Origin: Escherichia coli
GTDB lineage: Bacteria; Pseudomonadota; Gammaproteobacteria; Enterobacterales; Enterobacteriaceae
DNA length: 64,000 nucleotides
Assembly: GCF_016026235.1 (NCBI RefSeq)
Contig: NZ_CP065613.1
Strand: one strand, 5' to 3'
Shown one piece after another: positions 1-58,802 of this stretch. Within the stretch, counting starts at the first letter, position 1. Every line of letters begins with the position of its first letter. Under the pieces are notes generated by a model, which ran no database searches, was not told the DNA's origin, and saw only the letters and a list, made by a program, of their open reading frames with translations. The translations under genes and the position numbers were made by a program.

Positions 1-1580
1 TGATCGCGGTAATCGCCGTAGGCGAGGGTGGCATCGCGTACCGGGTTGAGTAACGGCAGTTGCAGATTGCCGAATTCATCCTTTCCCTGCGGTGGTGGTA
101 CGTCCATAAAGGCTTTAGCCTGTGCCAGTACGTTAACGCCGGACTGCCAGTTCTGGTTGTAATAATGGTGCCAGCTTCCGACCAGCAATGCCGCCAGTGC
201 CGCGCCACAGGCGGAAAAGGCGGTCAGCCTGCGCCGGGAGCTGTTCAGCCAGACGCTGTTTTCACCTGCAAGGTTTGGCTCGGCCAGCAGGACTTCCGGG
301 AAGAGGCGGCGGGTGAAATACGGCGTTGTTTCCACCAGGGGCCAGGTCGCCAGCGAGCTGTTGCCCAGCCCGTACTGGCGGGCGGCGGACTGCGTGAAAA
401 TATCATCCACCTGGCCGCGCTGTAGCGAGGATGTGAGCCAGACGCCGCGCAGCATCACATCCATATTCTCGCCGTCCAGCAATGCGGCGAGCAGTGAAGT
501 GACGATTTCTCCCGTTCCCTGCATCTGACGGGAGAAACTGAACACGGCGCTGCGTAGCGCAGCACCGGTCTGCACGAGCATCAGGTCTGACAGCGCCAGG
601 TTCATCTGTTGCCCCCACGTCTGCCAGAACGCACTCAGCTCACTGCGCCAGTCATCGTTTTCATGGGCGCGGCGGGTAAATGTGACGCCGAGGATCGCAT
701 CGCGGCCTTTTTTATCCAGCGAATGGAAAAGTGCGGCAAAGCCAGTCAGCAGATCCAGCCGGGTCAGCACCACATAAACGGGCAACCGGCAGTGCAGGCA
801 CTGGCGGATCTCCTGGAGTTGCTGACGCAGATTTTGTACCAGTGCTTCGCGGCGGGGTTTATCCGCCGTCAGCAGATCGGGAAGATCGAGCGTCAGGATC
901 AGACCGTTGAGCGGCTGGCGTGCGCGTGTTTGCATTAGCCAGCCCAGCCAGTGTTCGCGCAGGCGGCGGTGGAGCAGATCATCCCCGCCGGGGGAGGTCA
1001 GTACACCGTCAACATCGAAAATCACCGCCTGGTTGCCCACTCGTGGTGTGATCAGCGGATGGTATTCCACACCCCGGATGCTTTCCGGCGTGTAAATAAT
1101 GTCAGATGGAAAGCTCTCACGCAACAGCGTGCTTTTACCGCTACCGGCAGGTCCAATGACCATATACCACGGCAGTTGCCACAGATAGCGGTGGTTATCC
1201 AGATGGCGGCGCAGGCGCAGCAGCCAGTGATCCAGATATTGCTGCTGGCGGTGGAGTTGCACGGTCAGCGGATCTTTTTCTTCCTCCCGCTGCTGTTTCT
1301 GCTGTTTTTCCAGCTTTTGCAGACGCTTCATTACCCGCCAGGTGAGCCAGATCAGAGCGGTAAGTCCCCAGACGGCAGTCGCAAGCCAGCGGTTTGCCAG
1401 GGGAGCCAGCCAGTGCTGCTCATAGAGCGTCCATTTCGGACCCTGCCACCAGATCCATACCAGCAGAAAAAACCATGCCAGCATCAGTAGCCAGGTGGCG
1501 GAAACTTTAAACCGCGGCATCGCTGGCCTGAGCGCAGATTTCAACGTGCTGAACAGTCGGGATGTGGGAAATTTGAACAC
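1..1580 (-). CDS. tssM: TssM (IcmF-like) T6SS inner-membrane protein, N-terminal part; gene continues past window start
   Basis: Minus-strand frame open from window edge to GTG at 1580 (AGGAG 5 nt upstream; alternative ATG at 1520). Own translation gives a hydrophobic N-terminus and Walker A GPAGSGKS. Not in ORF track because it is truncated by the window edge. Confidence 0.7.
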   Translation of the reverse strand, partial: MFKFPTSRLFSTLKSALRPAMPRFKVSATWLLMLAWFFLLVWIWWQGPKWTLYEQHWLAPLANRWLATAVWGLTALIWLTWRVMKRLQKLEKQQKQQREEEKDPLTVQLHRQQQYLDHWLLRLRRHLDNHRYLWQLPWYMVIGPAGSGKSTLLRESFPSDIIYTPESIRGVEYHPLITPRVGNQAVIFDVDGVLTSPGGDDLLHRRLREHWLGWLMQTRARQPLNGLILTLDLPDLLTADKPRREALVQNLRQQLQEIRQCLHCRLPVYVVLTRLDLLTGFAALFHSLDKKGRDAILGVTFTRRAHENDDWRSELSAFWQTWGQQMNLALSDLMLVQTGAALRSAVFSFSRQMQGTGEIVTSLLAALLDGENMDVMLRGVWLTSSLQRGQVDDIFTQSAARQYGLGNSSLATWPLVETTPYFTRRLFPEVLLAEPNLAGENSVWLNSSRRRLTAFSACGAALAALLVGSWHHYYNQNWQSGVNVLAQAKAFMDVPPPQGKDEFGNLQLPLLNPVRDATLAYGDYRD

Positions 1581-1599
1581 AGTAACTCCTTGTTATCTT

Positions 1600-3042
1600 T
1601 TACTGTTCTGCCGTGAGTTTTTGTTCCAGTGCTTTCAGCAGGGAAGGCTCCCATTCGGGTAGCATCATGTGTAAGCCTGTTTTGAAGAGCATCCGGTACT
1701 GCTGTTGTGCAAGCTGAACCATACCGGCTTCTTCCAGTAACTGCGCGCCGAAAAATTGGCGATGAAACTGGTTACGGGGATCACCTTCGGGCAGGTTTTC
1801 CAGATACCGCAGCGCGGTTTCCAGCCCGTTCTCATCGAAGCACGCCCTGGCCGCCTGTAATTCTTCATCGGTCTGTACAGCTGCTGCGGTTTGGTTGCCT
1901 GAGCCCGATGGTGCCAGCCACTGTTTCGTCTGTTCGGACACAAACGGAGTGCGGTCGTTAAACAACAGGTTGATCAGTGCGGGCAGGCGGGCCAGAAACC
2001 CGGTAACTTCATCACGAATAGCATCCGCCACCTGTTTATAACCGAGGCGCAACGCGGTCTGTGCTGAGAGGTAATGGCCGTCCAGCCAGTACGGGGCCAG
2101 CAGCAGGCTTTTTTCCACCTGCTGCCATAGCGCCATGTCGGCATTGTTCAGCCGCGCCAGGTAATCATCCATCATATCGACAGGGAAGGCTGCCAGTGGG
2201 GTCCGTCCATCGCTTTCTGCCTGCGGAGTACTGGTGATGGTCTGCCACAGCGCATGGCGGCGCAGTCGGTAACCCTGCGGTGACTCCGGCTGGCGCTCAC
2301 AGAGAATGGCTGCCACCTTCAGCAGGGTGTCGCGCCATGCTTTATCGTCGTGGCTGTCAACAGTGACTTGCGGGATTGGAGTGGCTGCAGCAGGAGGCTG
2401 AGCGGCAACCGTGTGCGGTGACATATCCGGTACAGATCCGGTCGTGGCCTGCGGCGCACTGGCGGCGGTTCGTGCCGATGATGGCATTTCAGGCGCGACA
2501 TCACGAAACGCGCGCTGAAACAGGGCAAATAAATCGTCTGTCGCCTTAGCCAGCTCAGGCGCGTTGTGCGCCTGCCAGCACTGTGCCAGTTTTGCCAGCT
2601 CTCCCAGCAAAGCATCGCGCTGTGTTGTCGCAGCATTCCCGGCAAAGTCCTGAACGGCAGACTCAAAGCGTTTTATCACCTGGGCGGCAAAGCGTTTTTT
2701 GTGGGCCATGTTCTGCGGTGCGGCGCATGTCCAGTAGTGCTCTGTATATTGTGCCAGCATCCTGGAGGCCAGCAGAATATCACCGGCATGTTGCAGGGTA
2801 CGCAGCAGGTGGGCCAGCAGGCGAAAATCTTTGGTTTCTGAGGCCAGAAGCATCAGGCCCCGGCGCTGAAGTTCGGGGATATCAAGCTGGCTGTGCGCCA
2901 GTGAGCCTAGCTTGACGATTTCGCTGTCGATAAACTCCCAGTCTGCATTACCATCATCAAGCGCGGCGGACAGCTTATCTTCCGGCAGGTTTTCCAGCAG
3001 GTGTGCAAGCCATACATCAGGATTACGTAAGTCCATTGCCAT
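1600..3042 (-). CDS. tssA: TssA (ImpA-family) T6SS protein
   Basis: Track ORF 1600..3108; start trimmed to ATG 3042 (GGGAG upstream, immediately after stop of upstream gene). N-terminal region resembles ImpA_N; position between tssM and clpV. Confidence 0.75.
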   Translation of the reverse strand: MAMDLRNPDVWLAHLLENLPEDKLSAALDDGNADWEFIDSEIVKLGSLAHSQLDIPELQRRGLMLLASETKDFRLLAHLLRTLQHAGDILLASRMLAQYTEHYWTCAAPQNMAHKKRFAAQVIKRFESAVQDFAGNAATTQRDALLGELAKLAQCWQAHNAPELAKATDDLFALFQRAFRDVAPEMPSSARTAASAPQATTGSVPDMSPHTVAAQPPAAATPIPQVTVDSHDDKAWRDTLLKVAAILCERQPESPQGYRLRRHALWQTITSTPQAESDGRTPLAAFPVDMMDDYLARLNNADMALWQQVEKSLLLAPYWLDGHYLSAQTALRLGYKQVADAIRDEVTGFLARLPALINLLFNDRTPFVSEQTKQWLAPSGSGNQTAAAVQTDEELQAARACFDENGLETALRYLENLPEGDPRNQFHRQFFGAQLLEEAGMVQLAQQQYRMLFKTGLHMMLPEWEPSLLKALEQKLTAEQ

Positions 3043-26238: not shown

Positions 26239-27055
26239 ATGGAACTTAAAAAATTGATGGAACATATTTCTATTATCCCCGATTACAGGCAAGCCTGGAA
26301 AGTGGAACATAAATTGCAGATATTCTATCTGTTAACTATTTGCGCCGTTATTTCTGGTGCATAATGCTGGGAAGATATAGAGGATTTGGGGAAACACAAC
26401 CCGATTTTTTGAAGTGATATGGTGATTTTGAAAATGGTATTCCTGTTCACGATATCATTGCCAGAGTTGTATCCTGTATCAGTCCTGAAAAATTTCATGA
26501 GTGCTTTATTAACTGGATGCGTGACTGTCATTCTTCAGATGATAAAGACGTCATTACAATTGATGGAAAAACGCTCCGGCACTCTTATGATAAAAGTCGT
26601 CACAAGGGAGCAATTTATGTCATTAAAATCCGTCTTCATATTGTTTGCATGTCTCTGATGAATTTATTGATTTTACGTTTGAATGGAAAGGGCTGAAGAA
26701 ATTATGCATGGCAGTCTCATTTCGCTCAATAATAGCAGAACAAAAGAAAAATCCCGAAATGACGGTCAGATATTATAGCATTTCTGCTGATTTAACCGCA
26801 GAGAAGTTCGCCACAGCGAACCGAAATCACTGGCAAGTGGAGAATAAATTGCACTGGCATCTGGACGTGGTAATGAATAAAGACGACTTTATAATAAGAA
26901 GATGAAATGCAACAGAATTATTTTCAGGGATACGGAACATCGCTATTAATATTTCAAAGAAAGATAAGATACTCAAGGCCGGGGCAAGATGTAAGATGTG
27001 AAAGCAGCTGCGGACAGAGACTACCTCGCGTCAGTCCTTTCGGGGGCGGGCTTTC
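26239..27055 (+). pseudogene. H-repeat associated protein (ISAs1-family transposase) pseudogene with internal deletion and frameshifts
   Basis: Starts [26 protein letters not shown]..., then stop/frame changes; contains [28 protein letters not shown] and C-terminal [23 protein letters not shown]...[20 protein letters not shown]; about 320 bp of the middle are missing relative to the full-length family. Confidence 0.7.
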
Positions 27056-27732: not shown

Positions 27733-28005
27733 TTTTTCAAATTGTGTGATTAAATAATTGAACATTAATGATGATTTATAGCATCATTATTCTATAACAT
27801 GAATAAACGGATTGAATGTGTTATGTTAAAAATGAGTTTATACGTAATAATATTGTTATTTCCCTTTCAGATTAGTGCAGCCATTACTAGCAAGGAAAGT
27901 GAGGTTGTTTCACCATTATTAATGGATGTTAATTCTTCACTAACAATGGAAAATATTTCTGAATTATCCACATCATCGGAACCATCGCAACAGGGGGTAT
28001 TTCCC

Positions 28006-29297
28006 TGAGGGATCCCCAGAAAATTTAGTAAACCATTATCATATTGGTATACCGTTGCTGTAGAACTTTCAGCCCTGCGTCAAGTGACAGTGTGTTTAGT
28101 ATGAGTGGAGAATGTCGAATCACATTCTCCGCCAGTTTTAATAACGAGATGACTCGCCTGTGCTTCACTGTATTTGCCTGATATTTATGATGTATCCCTT
28201 TGTTTTCCAGGCTGAAACCGCTTAACCACATAATGATACTGGCTAATGTTGCGATCAGACTCAATACCGTGACCCGCCCGGATGAATGACTGGCACCAAA
28301 CCGTAGTCCAAATCCCCAGCGAGGATTTTTTTCATCCCTGAAATTTTGCTCAATTTGCATTCTACGGCTGTATAATTTCATTACCTGTTTTGGCGAGAAC
28401 TCAGTACTGTTTGTGAAAATAAACCATGGTGATTTCCCGGCAGTACGAGCTTTAGCCGTCACCGATGGTCTGGTTGCTCTTTCCTTCGAGCGTTTAAATC
28501 TACGACCTTTAGGCTTACTTTTATAAAGATAAAAATGCCCTTCATGTTGTGCATTTTTATCTCGACCCAGCAGGCCTTCACCTAAATAAATTGCTGTCGT
28601 TGATGCTTTTGTGCCTGAGTCCGACACCTTTTCCCAGCCATTACCAACATTGTAATAATGATTGCCCAGTACCCGGCAAATATAGGTCCAGCCACGGGAG
28701 CGGAGCTGTTGGAACCATCGCCCCTGAAAACCGGCATCTGTAATAACAATGACATCAGTCCCGGGGGAAAAGCACTCAGCAAGCGATTCCAGAAAACGCT
28801 CATGTACATCTGCATTCGCTGTCTGTGATGATGGAACGACACAACTCATCAACGGTAAAGAACGCCCGTCACATGCCAGGCTTGCCCGCAAAAGCTGAAA
28901 ACGAGAGGCATGATAAGCACTCCAGTCAATGAGTATCACAACACGAGACATTCCCCGCGTAATCTTTTGGGTAATTCGCTGAAAAATGGTGGAAACCTCA
29001 TTTTGCAAATGTCGATTCCCCAACAGTCGATCCACCCGCTTTATTTTGTTTTTAACTGATGCCGTACCGGTTAAATGACGCCCGATACTGGTAAGTGTGA
29101 GGGAAGCGCCATTTATTACAGCATTAGTTGCGTCAATCAGTGATTTTTGACGGTAAAGATGCAAAGGGGCCAGTATATTGTTAAGGAAATTTTGGCATAA
29201 TGAACGTGCAGGCATAGTGGTGATCTCCTTGAAATTGTTAGCACAATCAATTAGATCACATCTCACTATGCCTGTCTTGTTTTCTGGGGATTCCTCA
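28006..29297 (-). mobile_element. IS4-family-like insertion sequence, copy 1 (intact), approx 1292 bp
   Basis: Terminal inverted repeats TGAGGGATCCCCAGAAAA / TGAGGAATCCCCAGAAAA; 11-bp direct repeat GGGGTATTTCC at 27994-28004 and 29298-29308; single transposase ORF. Confidence 0.8.
28025..29215 (-). CDS. IS transposase (intact)
   Basis: Track ORF 28025..29266; start placed at ATG 29215 (MPARSLCQNFLNN...) with RBS AAGGAG, matching the start in copy 2. Confidence 0.8.
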   Translation of the reverse strand: MPARSLCQNFLNNILAPLHLYRQKSLIDATNAVINGASLTLTSIGRHLTGTASVKNKIKRVDRLLGNRHLQNEVSTIFQRITQKITRGMSRVVILIDWSAYHASRFQLLRASLACDGRSLPLMSCVVPSSQTANADVHERFLESLAECFSPGTDVIVITDAGFQGRWFQQLRSRGWTYICRVLGNHYYNVGNGWEKVSDSGTKASTTAIYLGEGLLGRDKNAQHEGHFYLYKSKPKGRRFKRSKERATRPSVTAKARTAGKSPWFIFTNSTEFSPKQVMKLYSRRMQIEQNFRDEKNPRWGFGLRFGASHSSGRVTVLSLIATLASIIMWLSGFSLENKGIHHKYQANTVKHRRVISLLKLAENVIRHSPLILNTLSLDAGLKVLQQRYTNMIMVY

Positions 29298-29635
29298 GGG
29301 GTATTTCCTGTAATATGTACTCGACTTCATCCTGGCTCTGTAATGAAACGCCAGTTATTAACCGGCTGGGGGCCTGTTTTTATAATTGGGGATGATCCTT
29401 TTTCTCTGCGCTGGATGAGTGAACATCTGGAGATCCTTAAATCGCTAAATGCCCTTGGTTTGGTTGTTAATGTTGAATCAGTAGAACGAATGGAGGTATT
29501 ACAGCAGCGGGCTGATGGGTTATTGTTATTGCCAGTTATCTGCGATAATTTCGTGCAAACTCTGCAATTAAATGCTTATCCGGTATTAATCACAGAGATG
29601 GAAATATCACAATGATTAATAACATAATTACTGCA

Positions 29636-36428: not shown

Positions 36429-36707
36429 TTACCCAAAGAGCGCCGCGTGAGTTCCAGTTCTCTCAAATCGTAAAAGTTTATCGGTAAGTTTGTAAATCAG
36501 GATCCAGTCCGGTTCGACATGAGCATCGCGATAACCTTTCCATGAACCTTGCAGCGGGTGGTCTTTATAAACAGCTGGAAGCGGTAAAGCATTATTGATA
36601 AGAAGCGTCATAAGATATTTCAATTTATTCATATACTTATGACGCTTTTGTGCAAGTTTTACATCCTTTGAAAATTGTCCCGAGTATTCAATATCCCTTT
36701 GAATCAT
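36429..36707 (-). CDS. yafQ: YafQ toxin (RelE-family mRNA interferase)
   Basis: 92 aa, directly downstream of dinJ with 2-nt gap. Confidence 0.85.
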   Translation of the reverse strand: MIQRDIEYSGQFSKDVKLAQKRHKYMNKLKYLMTLLINNALPLPAVYKDHPLQGSWKGYRDAHVEPDWILIYKLTDKLLRFERTGTHAALFG

Positions 36708-36709
36708 AT

Positions 36710-36970
36710 TTAAATTCCTAATTTATCAAATAAATCATCGGCGTCTTTGGCCTTATGAACATCAACGCCAGCTTCGCTGTTTTTGATTGATTGAATGGTT
36801 AATTGATTAGGCTCGCGTAAATCAAACGGCAATGCCTTTTCACGCGCGACCTTTGTGAGGGTTATGCGAACCAGGTCAGAGATGGTCAGCCCCATCCCGG
36901 CCAGTACGTCCGCCGCCTGATTCTTCAGATCTTCATCGATTCGGGCACGAACAAACGCGTTAGCAGCCAT
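36710..36970 (-). CDS. dinJ: DinJ antitoxin
   Basis: 86 aa RHH antitoxin upstream of yafQ. Confidence 0.85.
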   Translation of the reverse strand: MAANAFVRARIDEDLKNQAADVLAGMGLTISDLVRITLTKVAREKALPFDLREPNQLTIQSIKNSEAGVDVHKAKDADDLFDKLGI

Positions 36971-36985
36971 TGGGGTATCTCCTGT

Positions 36986-37005
36986 GCTGTATATTTATTC
37001 AGCTT
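36986..37005 (-). promoter_or_regulatory. LexA box (SOS operator) upstream of dinJ
   Basis: Minus-strand sequence AGCTGAATAAATATACAGCA: CTG-N10-CAG palindromic half-sites 16-35 nt upstream of dinJ start. Confidence 0.55.
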
Positions 37006-37179
37006 GAATTGTAGCTCAAATGAGCAACAGCGGCAATTCATGAGCAATTCAATAAACTGATGTATTTACATAATTCACTGAAATATATATGTTAATTTTA
37101 TAATAATGGTTTATTAAGTTTGTTCAGAAACGATCTGGGATACACTGCAACATTAAAGCATGACCAGCCATTATTGAGT

Positions 37180-37929
37180 ATGTCCTTGCCGTCGATTCCA
37201 TCCTTTGTATTGTCGGGATTACTGTTGATTTGTTTGCCGTTTTCTTCATTTGCCAGCGCCACCACATCACATATCTCTTTCAGCTACGCCGCCCGCCAGC
37301 GGATGCAAAACCGTGCGCGTTTATTAAAACAGTACCAAACCCATCTGAAAAAGCAGGCCAGCTATATTGTGGAAGGCAATGCCGAAAGCAGAAGGGCGCT
37401 GCGCCAGCACAACCGCGAACAGATAAAACAGCATCCAGAATGGTTTCCTGCGCCGCTCAAGGCGAGTGACAGACGCTGGCAGGCGCTGGCGGAAAACAAC
37501 CACTTTTTAAGCAGCGATCACCTGCATAACATCACCGAAGTGGCGATTCACCGCCTGGAGCAGCAGCTTGGCAAGCCTTACGTCTGGGGCGGCACGCGGC
37601 CTGATAAAGGCTTCGACTGTAGCGGGTTGGTTTTTTATGCCTACAACAAGATCCTCGAGGCGAAGCTCCCGCGCACGGCCAATGAGATGTATCACTACCG
37701 CCGGGCAACGATTGTGGCGAATAACGACCTGCGCCGGGGAGATTTGCTGTTTTTCCATATTCACAGTCGTGAGATTGCCGACCATATGGGGGTGTATCTG
37801 GGCGACGGTCAGTTTATTGAGTCACCGCGCACCGGGGAAACCATTCGGGTAAGTCGGTTAGCTGAACCTTTCTGGCAGGATCACTTTTTAGGCGCGCGGC
37901 GGATTTTGACGGAGGAGACGATTTTGTAG
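37180..37929 (+). CDS. yafL: YafL NlpC/P60-family peptidase lipoprotein
   Basis: Track ORF 37120..37929; start trimmed to MSLPSIPSF...; NlpC/P60 motifs DCSGLVFYAY and HMGVYLGDGQFIES. Confidence 0.8.
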   Translation: MSLPSIPSFVLSGLLLICLPFSSFASATTSHISFSYAARQRMQNRARLLKQYQTHLKKQASYIVEGNAESRRALRQHNREQIKQHPEWFPAPLKASDRRWQALAENNHFLSSDHLHNITEVAIHRLEQQLGKPYVWGGTRPDKGFDCSGLVFYAYNKILEAKLPRTANEMYHYRRATIVANNDLRRGDLLFFHIHSREIADHMGVYLGDGQFIESPRTGETIRVSRLAEPFWQDHFLGARRILTEETIL

Positions 37930-42777: not shown

Positions 42778-43050
42778 TTAATGAACCAGCAGAGCGGCTT
42801 GGGTAAACAGATGAATGCACAGATCATGCAACTGGATAATCATCCATTTGCCGCACACGCCCAGCACCACCAGCGTGACAATCAGCCTCGGCAAAAAGCT
42901 CAGGGTCTGTTCGTTAATCTGCGTCACCGCCTGGAACACGCTCACCAGCAGGCCAACCAGCAGGCTTGGCACCACCAGTACCGAAACCAGCAAAATCACT
43001 ACTTTTATGCCGCTGGCGACAATGTCGGCGGCAACGTCTACGGTCAACAT
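42778..43050 (-). CDS. lfiQ: Lateral flagellar export protein FliQ homolog
   Basis: 90 aa, two TM helices, FliQ-like. Confidence 0.8.
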   Translation of the reverse strand: MLTVDVAADIVASGIKVVILLVSVLVVPSLLVGLLVSVFQAVTQINEQTLSFLPRLIVTLVVLGVCGKWMIIQLHDLCIHLFTQAALLVH

Positions 43051-56392: not shown

Positions 56393-57092
56393 GATATGTT
56401 TACGAAGTAGATAAGGCCGGGAAAAACCGGCCTGAAAGCGTTAGCAAGGTAGCAGCGAAAACGCATAAAGCAGCGGCTCTGCGCAACATTCAGCCTGAAT
56501 TTGTTGGCGAATCAGCAGCGCATTTTCACTCTCTCGCCAGCGTTCAAACATGGCAAAGAGGGCGAAAATATCCTCCTGCCGCAGCGGAGAACCATCCAGC
56601 GTCCATAAACTGATTAACGTGCGGAGGAGATAAAAATCGCACACCAGCGGGAAATAATCCGCCCCGTCAGTCTGCCCAATCATATCGTGGTAAACGCGGT
56701 AAATCAGCCAGTTACGCATCATCCAGGGCGCGGTGGCAAAATGCTGTTGCCAGGTGGTTTGCCACTGCGTCTGAAGCTGCTGTTGTAACAGGGCTTCGCT
56801 GTTGGCGTCATGCAGCGTCAGTAAAGTAACCTGCAACGGCAGCGAGGCTTTGCGCGGGCTTTCCGGCAAAATCGACCAGTCAAACGCACAACCGCCGAGC
56901 AGCGTCATCAACTGGCGCGCCAGCTGTGGCACGGGTGGGAGCTGGGCGTACTGTGCCTGTAGCGTACCTTTTTTCGCATGATCGGCCAGCGCCTGTGGCA
57001 GCGTCGTCAAACGGGCCAGGATGTCTCCGTCTCTGCCCGGCATTTTGCTGGCGCGGGAGAGCAAAATCCCGACAGCATACAGGGAAAGCTCC

Positions 57093-58383
57093 TGAGGAAT
57101 CCCCAGAAAACAAGACAGGCATAGTGAGATGTGATCTAATTGATTGTGCTAACAATTTCAAGGAGATCACCACTATGCCTGCACGTTCATTATGCCAAAA
57201 TTTCCTTAACAATATACTGGCCCCTTTGCATCTTTACCGTCAAAAATCACTGATTGACGCAACTAATGCTGTAATAAATGGCGCTTCCCTCACACTTACC
57301 AGTATCGGGCGTCATTTAACCGGTACGGCATCAGTTAAAAACAAAATAAAGCGGGTGGATCGACTGTTGGGGAATCGACATTTGCAAAATGAGGTTTCCA
57401 CCATTTTTTAGCGAATTACCCAAAAGATTACGCGGGGAATGTCTCGTGTTGTGATACTCATTGACTGGAGTGCTTATCATGCCTCTCGTTTTCAGCTTTT
57501 GCGGGCAAGCCTGGCATGTGACGGGCGTTCTTTACCGTTGATGAGTTGTGTCGTTCCATCATCACAGACAGCGAATGCAGATGTACATGAGCGTTTTCTG
57601 GAATCGCTTGCTGAGTGCTTTTCCCCCGGGACTGATGTCATTGTTATTACAGATGCCGGTTTTCAGGGGCGATGGTTCCAACAGCTCCGCTCCCGTGGCT
57701 GGACCTATATTTGCCGGGTACTGGGCAATCATTATTACAATGTTGGTAATGGCTGGGAAAAGGTGTCGGACTCAGGCACAAAAGCATCAACGACAGCAAT
57801 TTATTTAGGTGAAGGCCTGCTGGGTCGAGATAAAAATGCACAACATGAAGGGCATTTTTATCTTTATAAAAGTAAGCCTAAAGGTCGTAGATTTAAACGC
57901 TCGAAGGAAAGAGCAACCAGACCATCGGTGACGGCTAAAGCTCGTACTGCCGGGAAATCACCATGGTTTATTTTCACAAACAGTACTGAGTTCTCGCCAA
58001 AACAGGTAATGAAATTATACAGCCGTAGAATGCAAATTGAGCAAAATTTCAGGGATGAAAAAATCCTCGCTGGGGATTTGGACTACGGTTTGGTGCCAGT
58101 CATTCATCCGGGCGGGTCACGGTATTGAGTCTGATCGCAACATTAGCCAGTATCATTATGTGGTTAAGCGGTTTCAGCCTGGAAAACAAAGGGATACATC
58201 ATAAATATCAGGCAAATACAGTGAAGCACAGGCGAGTCATCTCGTTATTAAAACTGGCGGAGAATGTGATTCGACATTCTCCACTCATACTAAACACACT
58301 GTCACTTGACGCAGGGCTGAAAGTTCTACAGCAACGGTATACCAATATGATAATGGTTTACTAAATTTTCTGGGGATCCCTCA
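57093..58383 (+). mobile_element. IS4-family-like insertion sequence, copy 2 (mutated), inverted relative to copy 1
   Basis: Same inverted repeats as copy 1; 11-bp direct repeat GGGAAAGCTCC at 57082-57092 and 58385-58395. Confidence 0.8.
57175..58364 (+). pseudogene. IS transposase pseudogene (nonsense codon plus 1-bp deletion)
   Basis: Relative to copy 1: CAG to TAG at approx 57410 and an A6 run where copy 1 has A7 (approx 58066-58071); track shows three ORF pieces. Confidence 0.75.
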
Positions 58384-58802
58384 GGGGAAAGCTCCGGGGT
58401 TAAATCACGGAGCGTGAGGGTACTCAAAATCACCTGGTTTACTATCGCATCGCGCGCGGAAAGCTCTGCGGAATTATCTTCCACAGGGCGGTAGGTGAGC
58501 TGTAAATCAAAGGCCCTGACATCGTTGAGCACCGCTTCGCAGCTGGCAATATCGGTCAATGACAGGCTCAGGCGAATCTCGTTTTTCCACACCTTGCGGA
58601 CGTATAAAGGCGAACCGGGGTGACGCGCTAAAAATTTGCGCACGTATTCCGGTTCGTAACATTCAATAAAACTCATAGGTGGCTTCCAGTCTTTAATGCT
58701 GTGCAGGATATGCAATAAGCGTGCCGGGGATTTTTGTAATTAAAAACAAGGGATTGGAAATCAGGCGGAAAATCCATTTCCGCTATGGGGAAGGTATTCG
58801 CG

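What the first reader, a model, noticed from the sequence alone, without database searches (positions are those of the whole stretch)
36986..37005. SOS operator in front of dinJ-yafQ
A CTG-N10-CAG palindrome (AGCTGAATAAATATACAGCA on the coding strand) lies 16-35 nt upstream of the dinJ start, consistent with LexA control of this toxin-antitoxin operon.
Basis: partly seen in the sequence, partly recalled or inferred. Interest (0 to 1): 0.2.

Follow-up and report, generated by a model that had tools for sequence, protein, structure and literature searches.

The report
Known LexA box before dinJ-yafQ
This is the well-known SOS (LexA) repressor binding site in front of the E. coli dinJ-yafQ toxin-antitoxin genes; it is real and scores well, but it is already in the literature and databases, so it is ordinary.

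Summary
The palindrome is real. It ends 14 nt before the dinJ ATG. Bare CTG-N10-CAG is not rare here (20 seen, about 15 expected). A heterology index from 18 independent UV-induced LexA boxes gives 7.36, the best site in the 64 kb (next 9.5; about 0.017 expected by chance) and within the range of recA, uvrD, cho and ruvA boxes. The site starts 4 nt after a predicted -10 (TACAAT), so it covers the likely transcription start. It is identical in K-12.

Papers state that LexA binds this promoter and that RegulonDB lists dinJ-yafQ as LexA targets. SOS induction has not been seen in E. coli, but the Salmonella homologue is induced 7.8-fold.

One addition: the element conserved upstream of dinJ homologues across distant bacteria is a different palindrome, GTAGCTCA-N2-TGAGCTAC, in the -35/-10 spacer. 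I take it as the likely DinJ operator. Among the genera sampled, the LexA box occurs only in Escherichia and Salmonella, where the leader is 7-8 nt longer.

Verdict: interpretation supported, already known, low interest.

The parts
36985..37004 (-). LexA (SOS) box, 20-mer AGCTGAATAAATATACAGCA. The CTG-N10-CAG core is at 36987..37002 and the spacer is 10/10 A/T.
   Evidence: for the sequence. HI 7.36, the best in the window. Identical in K-12 and O157:H7. A box with the same 14-nt gap to the ATG sits in the Salmonella homologue.
37008..37013 (-). Predicted -10 hexamer TACAAT of the dinJ promoter. The box starts 4 nt downstream of it, so the inferred transcription start (about 37000-37002) lies inside the box.
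   Evidence: Promoter scan, 9/12 match with a 17-nt spacer. The hexamer position is conserved in homologues as TACAGT, TACATT or CACAAT. The transcription start was not mapped here.
37031..37036 (-). Predicted -35 hexamer TTGCCG (TTGTCG in K-12).
37011..37028 (-). Palindrome GTTGCTCA-TT-TGAGCTAC in the -35/-10 spacer. Its right arm overlaps the first 3 nt of the -10. It is the likely operator for the ribbon-helix-helix antitoxin DinJ and is conserved upstream of dinJ homologues across phyla.
   Evidence: one match in the window at up to 3 mismatches, 0.13 expected; 0-3 mismatches to GTAGCTCANNTGAGCTAC in 27 of 29 homologous loci, 18-40 nt before the ATG.. DinJ binding is inferred, not shown here.
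36979..36983 (-). Shine-Dalgarno sequence AGGAG, 8 nt before the dinJ ATG and directly after the box.
   Evidence: Sequence; conserved in the alignment.
36710..36970 (-). dinJ, an 86-aa antitoxin of the RelB/DinJ family.
   Evidence: Pfam RelB PF04221, E 3e-34; RefSeq annotation of K-12 and FDAARGOS_943.
36429..36707 (-). yafQ, a 92-aa mRNA-interferase toxin. It starts 2 nt after the dinJ stop codon and is co-transcribed from the same promoter.
   Evidence: Pfam YafQ_toxin PF15738, E 3e-31; annotation.

Best explanation
The palindrome at 36985..37004 is the LexA operator of the dinJ-yafQ type II toxin-antitoxin operon. It lies 4 nt downstream of the -10 hexamer and spans the inferred transcription start and the early leader. 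A LexA dimer bound there should block RNA polymerase binding or initiation. RecA-stimulated LexA self-cleavage after DNA damage would remove that block. It is the second of two locks on this promoter. The first is a palindrome in the -35/-10 spacer (37011..37028) that is conserved in every dinJ homologue examined. I take that palindrome to be the DinJ (or DinJ-YafQ) autorepression site. Because both locks act on one promoter, loss of LexA alone may give little induction while DinJ is still present. That would explain why SOS induction is hard to see in E. coli. What is shown here: the sequence, its score, its position relative to the predicted promoter, its identity to K-12, and its taxonomic distribution. 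What comes from the literature: LexA binding in vitro and the RegulonDB listing. What is inferred: the transcription start, the steric mechanism, DinJ binding to the spacer palindrome, and the double-lock explanation.
For: HI 7.36 is the best site in 64 kb, with 0.017 expected by chance, and lies within the range of proven SOS boxes. The site sits immediately downstream of a 9/12 sigma-70 promoter match. It is identical in K-12. The 60-nt core from the Shine-Dalgarno sequence to the spacer palindrome is identical in 2375 of 3332 E. coli records. By contrast, only 4 records are >=99% identical over the 86-nt stretch that reaches upstream of the -35. Salmonella enterica dinJ-yafQ sits at a different chromosomal site, between rtcA and malT, and its DinJ is 85% identical. 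It carries AACTGTATAGAGACACAGTA (HI 6.23) with the same 14-nt gap to the ATG. Six of 20 positions differ from E. coli, none of them in CTG or CAG. That Salmonella gene is induced 7.8-fold by nalidixic acid (PMC8072944). [quoted passage not shown]
Against: DNA-damage induction of E. coli dinJ 'has not been seen' according to PMC4996492. dinJ is not mentioned in the UV tiling-array study. The box has A rather than the near-invariant T at position 6 (CTGA instead of CTGT), a base absent from all 18 training sites. No LexA box is found upstream of dinJ in Yersinia, Xenorhabdus, Photorhabdus, Pectobacterium or Klebsiella-type loci (best HI >= 15), so LexA control is not intrinsic to the family. The primary papers (Ruangprasert 2014, Prysak 2009, Armalyte 2012, Fernandez de Henestrosa 2000) could not be read here.
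Confidence: 0.9

Rival explanations
1. The CTG-N10-CAG palindrome is the autorepression operator of DinJ or DinJ-YafQ, either instead of or as well as a LexA site.
For: A review table lists 'dinJ-yafQ, CTGAATAAATATACAG' as the DinJ binding sequence, citing Prysak 2009. It also lists a LexA-consensus-like site as the DinJ target at cspE (PMC11610964).
Against: None of the DinJ homologues outside Escherichia and Salmonella, at 59-87% identity, has this palindrome. All have GTAGCTCA-N2-TGAGCTAC in the promoter spacer. [quoted passage not shown] The E. coli and Salmonella boxes keep only the LexA-defining positions.
Confidence: 0.12
2. It is a non-functional relic or a chance AT-rich palindrome: it looks like a LexA box but has no regulatory consequence in E. 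coli.
For: SOS induction has reportedly not been seen in E. coli, and dinJ is absent from the UV-induced sets. Position 6 is non-consensus. Strain EC96 tolerates an ISKox3 insertion inside the box.
Against: Chance expectation is 0.017 per 64 kb and 0.00045 for the intergenic region. The box is invariant across divergent E. coli lineages while sequence upstream of the -35 varies. It is positionally conserved in Salmonella, with substitutions only at non-critical positions, and that copy responds to SOS induction. In vitro LexA binding is reported.
Confidence: 0.06
3. The palindrome acts at the RNA level, as a 5'-UTR hairpin that affects dinJ translation or mRNA stability.
For: The palindrome lies just upstream of the Shine-Dalgarno sequence.
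Against: The leader does not fold better than shuffled sequence: MFE -6 kcal/mol, z = 0.62, and 144 of 200 shuffles fold at least as well. There is no Rfam match. The inferred transcription start lies inside the left arm, so the full hairpin would not be transcribed.
Confidence: 0.01
4. The box controls the divergent gene yafL (37180..37929, plus strand) rather than dinJ.
For: The site lies in the shared dinJ-yafL intergenic region.
Against: The box is 176 nt from the yafL start. It also lies upstream of the plus-strand promoter-like sites at 37065..37107, a position from which a repressor would not occlude RNA polymerase. In Salmonella the box travels with dinJ-yafQ into a different neighbourhood that has no yafL.
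Confidence: 0.02

Closest known systems
The dinJ LexA box of E. coli K-12. By my recollection it was first listed by Lewis et al. 1994 and by Fernandez de Henestrosa et al. 2000; it is in RegulonDB according to PMC4576408.
   Same: The 20-mer is identical, as are its distance to the ATG and the surrounding -10, Shine-Dalgarno and spacer palindrome. It is the same locus: yafJ-dpaA-yafQ-dinJ-yafL-rayT.
   Different: Nothing differs in the operator itself. The window's strain has seven single-base differences from K-12 further upstream, one of them in the -35 hexamer (TTGCCG against TTGTCG in K-12) and the other six upstream of it.
Canonical SOS operators of recA, lexA, uvrD, ruvA and cho (gammaproteobacterial consensus TACTG(TA)5CAGTA).
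   Same: It has the CTG-N10-CAG core, an all-A/T spacer, an HI in the same range and a position overlapping the core promoter.
   Different: It has A instead of T at position 6 and GC instead of AC before CTG. It shares the promoter with a second, unrelated repressor site. DNA-damage induction is not documented in E. coli.
The LexA box of Salmonella Typhimurium dinJ (STM14_4236; PMC8072944).
   Same: It is a homologous module (DinJ 85% identical) with the same 14-nt gap from box to ATG and the same 40-nt gap from spacer palindrome to ATG.
   Different: Six of 20 box positions differ and the Salmonella box is closer to the consensus (CTGT...ACAG, HI 6.23). It lies at a different chromosomal site, between rtcA and malT. 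It has been shown to be induced 7.8-fold by nalidixic acid.
[quoted passage not shown]
   Same: Each is a toxin-antitoxin module placed under SOS control by a LexA box at its promoter.
   Different: Most are type I systems in which only the toxin gene is under LexA control. Here a type II operon is repressed by both LexA and its own antitoxin.

Membership tests
LexA (SOS) box, gammaproteobacterial type | CTG-N10-CAG core | tested here: met
   CTGAATAAATATACAG at 37002..36987.
LexA (SOS) box, gammaproteobacterial type | The 20-bp site scores within the range of proven sites (heterology index) | tested here: met
   HI 7.36, against leave-one-out HI of 0.6-12.8 for 18 UV-induced boxes. It is the best site in 64 kb, with 0.017 expected by chance.
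LexA (SOS) box, gammaproteobacterial type | The site overlaps the core promoter or transcription start of the regulated gene | tested here: inconclusive
   The box starts 4 nt after a predicted -10 (TACAAT; 9/12 promoter match). The promoter and the transcription start are predictions and were not mapped here.
LexA (SOS) box, gammaproteobacterial type | LexA protein binds the site | not testable with these tools
   Reported in secondary sources citing Ruangprasert 2014. The primary paper is not held.
LexA (SOS) box, gammaproteobacterial type | The downstream gene is induced by DNA damage in a RecA/LexA-dependent way | not testable with these tools
   The literature is mixed. It is reported as not seen in E. 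coli and dinJ is absent from a UV tiling-array study. The Salmonella homologue with a box in the same position is induced 7.8-fold.
LexA (SOS) box, gammaproteobacterial type | The site is conserved at the orthologous promoter in related species | tested here: met
   It is met for Escherichia and Salmonella, at the same position with CTG and CAG kept. It is absent from homologues in other Enterobacterales.
dinJ-yafQ type II toxin-antitoxin operon | A RelB/DinJ antitoxin gene is followed directly by a YafQ toxin gene | tested here: met
   Pfam RelB at E 3e-34 and YafQ_toxin at E 3e-31. The genes are 2 nt apart on the same strand.
dinJ-yafQ type II toxin-antitoxin operon | An autorepression operator for the antitoxin lies in the promoter | tested here: inconclusive
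   A palindrome in the -35/-10 spacer is conserved in 27 of 29 homologous loci at up to 3 mismatches. DinJ binding to it was not tested, and the literature available here is ambiguous about which palindrome DinJ binds.

The most novel reading that the evidence does not exclude
Within the dinJ-yafQ family the LexA box is a recent, clade-restricted addition. It is seen only in Escherichia and Salmonella, in a leader 7-8 nt longer than elsewhere. It is layered onto a deeply conserved DinJ operator (GTAGCTCA-N2-TGAGCTAC). If so, reviews that list the CTG-N10-CAG palindrome as DinJ's own operator are probably wrong. The persistence of DinJ autorepression would also explain why E. coli dinJ shows no clear SOS induction even though LexA binds.
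Probability: 0.5. Interest if true: 0.25.

Novelty: already known. Interest (0 to 1): 0.1.

Why it matters
It matters little as a discovery. The site is a textbook or database entry, and here it confirms only that the window's strain keeps the K-12 regulatory architecture. The comparative result has modest value for toxin-antitoxin regulation, because it separates the LexA site from the probable DinJ operator. It shows that SOS wiring of this module is limited to the Escherichia/Salmonella branch. It also offers a testable reason (two locks on one promoter) for the long-standing mismatch between LexA binding and the lack of SOS induction of dinJ in E. coli.

Tried and rejected
1. The bare CTG-N10-CAG count is not significant (20 against about 15), so the pattern alone is no evidence. 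The full 20-mer had to be scored.
2. The RNA-hairpin reading of the palindrome was rejected: fold z = 0.62 and no Rfam hit.
3. I looked for the dinB LexA box as an in-window positive control and did not find it. The closest genome has a complete Flag-2 flagellar cluster after rayT, which pushes dinB beyond the window end.
4. The next-best LexA-like sites, 26365..26384 (HI 9.5) and 42830..42849 (HI 9.96), each lack one of the CTG/CAG triplets and were not pursued.
5. A scan for the alphaproteobacterial LexA motif (GTTC-N7-GTTC) upstream of the three alphaproteobacterial dinJ homologues found nothing.
6. I tried to read Ruangprasert 2014, Liang 2014, Armalyte 2012, Wade 2005 and Hu 2012. None is held, and the cap on papers was then reached. 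Statements about LexA and DinJ binding therefore rest on secondary citations.
7. The divergent-gene (yafL) reading was rejected on geometry and on the Salmonella context.

Full report
**Observation.** The minus strand of the window carries yafQ (36429..36707) and dinJ (36710..36970). Their products match Pfam YafQ_toxin (E 3e-31) and RelB (E 3e-34). The surrounding genes are annotated yafJ-dpaA-yafQ-dinJ-yafL-rayT in K-12 and in the closest genome, FDAARGOS_943. The stated coordinates are therefore one base too high. The CTG-N10-CAG core is at 36987..37002, and the 20-mer ends 14 nt before the ATG.

**Is it more than chance?** The bare CTG-N10-CAG pattern is not: 20 matches in the window against 14.75 +/- 3.78 in shuffles. 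I built a Berg-von Hippel heterology index (HI) from 18 LexA boxes found upstream of UV-induced genes in an independent study (PMC3009722, Table 4). dinJ is not among those 18. The dinJ site scores HI 7.36. Leave-one-out values for proven sites include recA 7.44, uvrD 7.82, cho 7.93, ruvA 8.52 and dinB 11.8. It is the best-scoring 20-mer on either strand of the whole 64 kb; the next are 9.5 and 9.96. Dinucleotide shuffles give 0.017 such sites per window, and shuffles of the AT-rich intergenic region give 0.00045. Its one unusual base is A at position 6 (CTGA rather than CTGT).

**Anatomy of the promoter.** A sigma-70 scan finds TTGCCG (37036..37031), a 17-nt spacer, then TACAAT (37013..37008) on the minus strand. 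The LexA box begins 4 nt after the -10. The inferred transcription start (about 37000-37002, not mapped here) therefore lies inside the box. The Shine-Dalgarno sequence AGGAG (36983..36979) follows directly. The promoter spacer holds a second palindrome, GTTGCTCA-TT-TGAGCTAC (37028..37011), whose right arm overlaps the -10.

**Comparison with K-12 and within E. coli.**
- From the spacer palindrome to the ATG, the window is identical to K-12.
- The locus is present in 3325 of 5426 complete E. coli genomes.
- The 60-nt core (36971..37030) is identical in 2375 of 3332 records.
- Only 4 records are >=99% identical over the 86 nt that extend beyond the -35, so variation concentrates upstream of the core.
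- Sampled variants: O157:H7 keeps the box. An O176:H45 strain has CTGT (closer to consensus) next to a yafQ pseudogene. One strain has a 1-nt insertion between the -10 and the box. Strain EC96 has an ISKox3 element inserted inside the box.

**Comparison across species.** A scan of species-representative genomes with DinJ returned 30 loci. They come from Escherichia, Yersinia, Xenorhabdus, Photorhabdus, Pectobacterium, Methylococcus, Ferrovum, an acidobacterium and alphaproteobacteria.
- Only the Escherichia locus has a LexA-like site within 200 nt upstream. Every other locus has a best HI of 14.9 or more, and none has CTG-N10-CAG near the promoter.
- What is conserved is GTAGCTCA-NN-TGAGCTAC. 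It matches with 0-3 mismatches in 27 of 29 loci, 18-40 nt before the ATG, always abutting a -10-like hexamer. The chance rate is 0.13 per 128 kb at up to 3 mismatches.
- Further loci were reached through protein homologues. Salmonella enterica dinJ-yafQ lies between rtcA and malT, a different neighbourhood, and its DinJ is 85% identical. It carries AACTGTATAGAGACACAGTA (HI 6.23) with the same 14-nt gap to the ATG and the same 40-nt gap from spacer palindrome to ATG. Six of 20 positions differ from E. coli, none in CTG or CAG.
- Klebsiella-type, Xenorhabdus and Yersinia leaders are 7-8 nt shorter and have no box.
- A Pseudocitrobacter dinJ with no called yafQ has the long leader but what looks like a decayed box.

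**Literature.**
- LexA binds the dinJ promoter, according to PMC4996492, PMC8138530 and PMC10135005, all citing Ruangprasert 2014.
- RegulonDB lists dinJ and yafQ as LexA-regulated (PMC4576408). [quoted passage not shown]
- PMC4996492 adds that induction after DNA damage 'has not been seen'. dinJ is not mentioned in the UV tiling-array paper.
- In Salmonella Typhimurium, dinJ (STM14_4236) rose 7.8-fold with nalidixic acid, and the authors report a LexA box 14 bp from the ATG (PMC8072944).
- One review table gives CTGAATAAATATACAG as the DinJ binding site, citing Prysak 2009. Another paper describes the DinJ site as a palindrome overlapping promoter elements and names the LexA consensus as an additional element.
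- The primary papers are not held.
- From memory only: the box was first listed by Lewis et al. 1994 and Fernandez de Henestrosa et al. 2000 with an HI near 7.

**Mechanism.** The best-supported reading is a double-locked promoter.
- DinJ, alone or with YafQ, binds the conserved spacer palindrome and occludes the -35/-10. This step is inferred from conservation and from the general behaviour of ribbon-helix-helix antitoxins.
- LexA binds the box across the transcription start. Binding is reported in the literature; the geometry is shown here.
- The two sites are 6 bp apart edge to edge and 25 bp centre to centre, so both proteins could bind together.
- Cleavage of LexA alone would then give limited derepression while DinJ persists. 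This is consistent with the weak or absent SOS induction in E. coli.
- The Salmonella palindrome is more degenerate (3 mismatches). That might make the LexA effect more visible there, but this is speculation.

**Rivals.** They are the palindrome as DinJ operator, a non-functional relic, an RNA hairpin (z = 0.62; no Rfam hit) and control of yafL. All are weaker for the reasons given in their entries.

**Verdict.** The feature is already known, so interest is low (0.1). The only mildly new point is comparative. Among the genera sampled, the LexA box is an Escherichia/Salmonella-specific addition next to a deeply conserved, different palindrome that is the more plausible DinJ operator.

Noticed in passing
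window 37011..37028 (minus strand); loci L007-L035, L039, L042, L044: The palindrome GTAGCTCA-NN-TGAGCTAC in the -35/-10 spacer is conserved upstream of dinJ homologues from Enterobacterales to alphaproteobacteria and an acidobacterium. It is probably the DinJ operator. A review instead lists the LexA-box palindrome as DinJ's site.
   Followed up: yes
window 37040..37047 (TTGCTCAT on the minus strand), 20 nt upstream of the left arm of the palindrome: This is an extra copy of the left half-site of the palindrome, just upstream of and overlapping the -35 region (direct repeat D1). In K-12 it reads TTACTCAT. It could be an auxiliary DinJ half-site.
   Followed up: no
L004 (E. coli EC96, NZ_CP060748.1) positions 213..1433: An ISKox3 (ISL3-like) element is inserted inside the dinJ LexA box. 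It separates dinJ from its promoter and leaves only ATAAATATACAGCA next to the gene.
   Followed up: partly
L039-L041 (Salmonella enterica): dinJ-yafQ sits between rtcA and malT, not next to yafL. It still carries a LexA box at the same distance from the ATG, so the module seems to have moved together with its operator.
   Followed up: yes
L044 (Pseudocitrobacter corydidari CP087880.1) 1400..1761: This dinJ has no yafQ gene called downstream. It keeps the long leader and the spacer palindrome, but the LexA box looks decayed (AAGGTATAG-TGTTCACCACAGG).
   Followed up: partly
window 38788..about 63600: A complete Flag-2 (lateral flagella) gene cluster (flhA, flhB, fliR-fliM, fliE-fliJ, flgN-flgG) follows rayT. 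I recall, but did not check here, that K-12 keeps only remnants of this cluster. It places dinB and its LexA box beyond the window end. Gene names are taken from the 99.9%-identical FDAARGOS_943 genome.
   Followed up: partly
window 1..about 26000: This is a type VI secretion cluster (tssA-tssK, tssH, hcp, vgrG, an M35 peptidase, a Tle1-like phospholipase effector and DUF3304/DUF4123 genes). It is intact here, whereas in FDAARGOS_943 it is interrupted by IS21, IS600 and IS1.
   Followed up: partly
window 28003..29298 and 57092..58386: There are two copies of an IS4-like element (ISEc60) in opposite orientations. The first is absent from FDAARGOS_943 at that site, where it interrupts a gene annotated 'integrating conjugative element protein'. 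The second splits a glycosyltransferase gene in the Flag-2 cluster in both strains.
   Followed up: partly
window 26365..26384 and 42830..42849: These are the next-best LexA-like 20-mers (HI 9.5 and 9.96). Each lacks one of the CTG/CAG triplets, so they are probably chance matches.
   Followed up: no
L006 (E. coli O176:H45 MIN9): The LexA box has CTGT instead of CTGA, which is closer to the consensus, and yafQ in that strain is a pseudogene with an internal stop.
   Followed up: no
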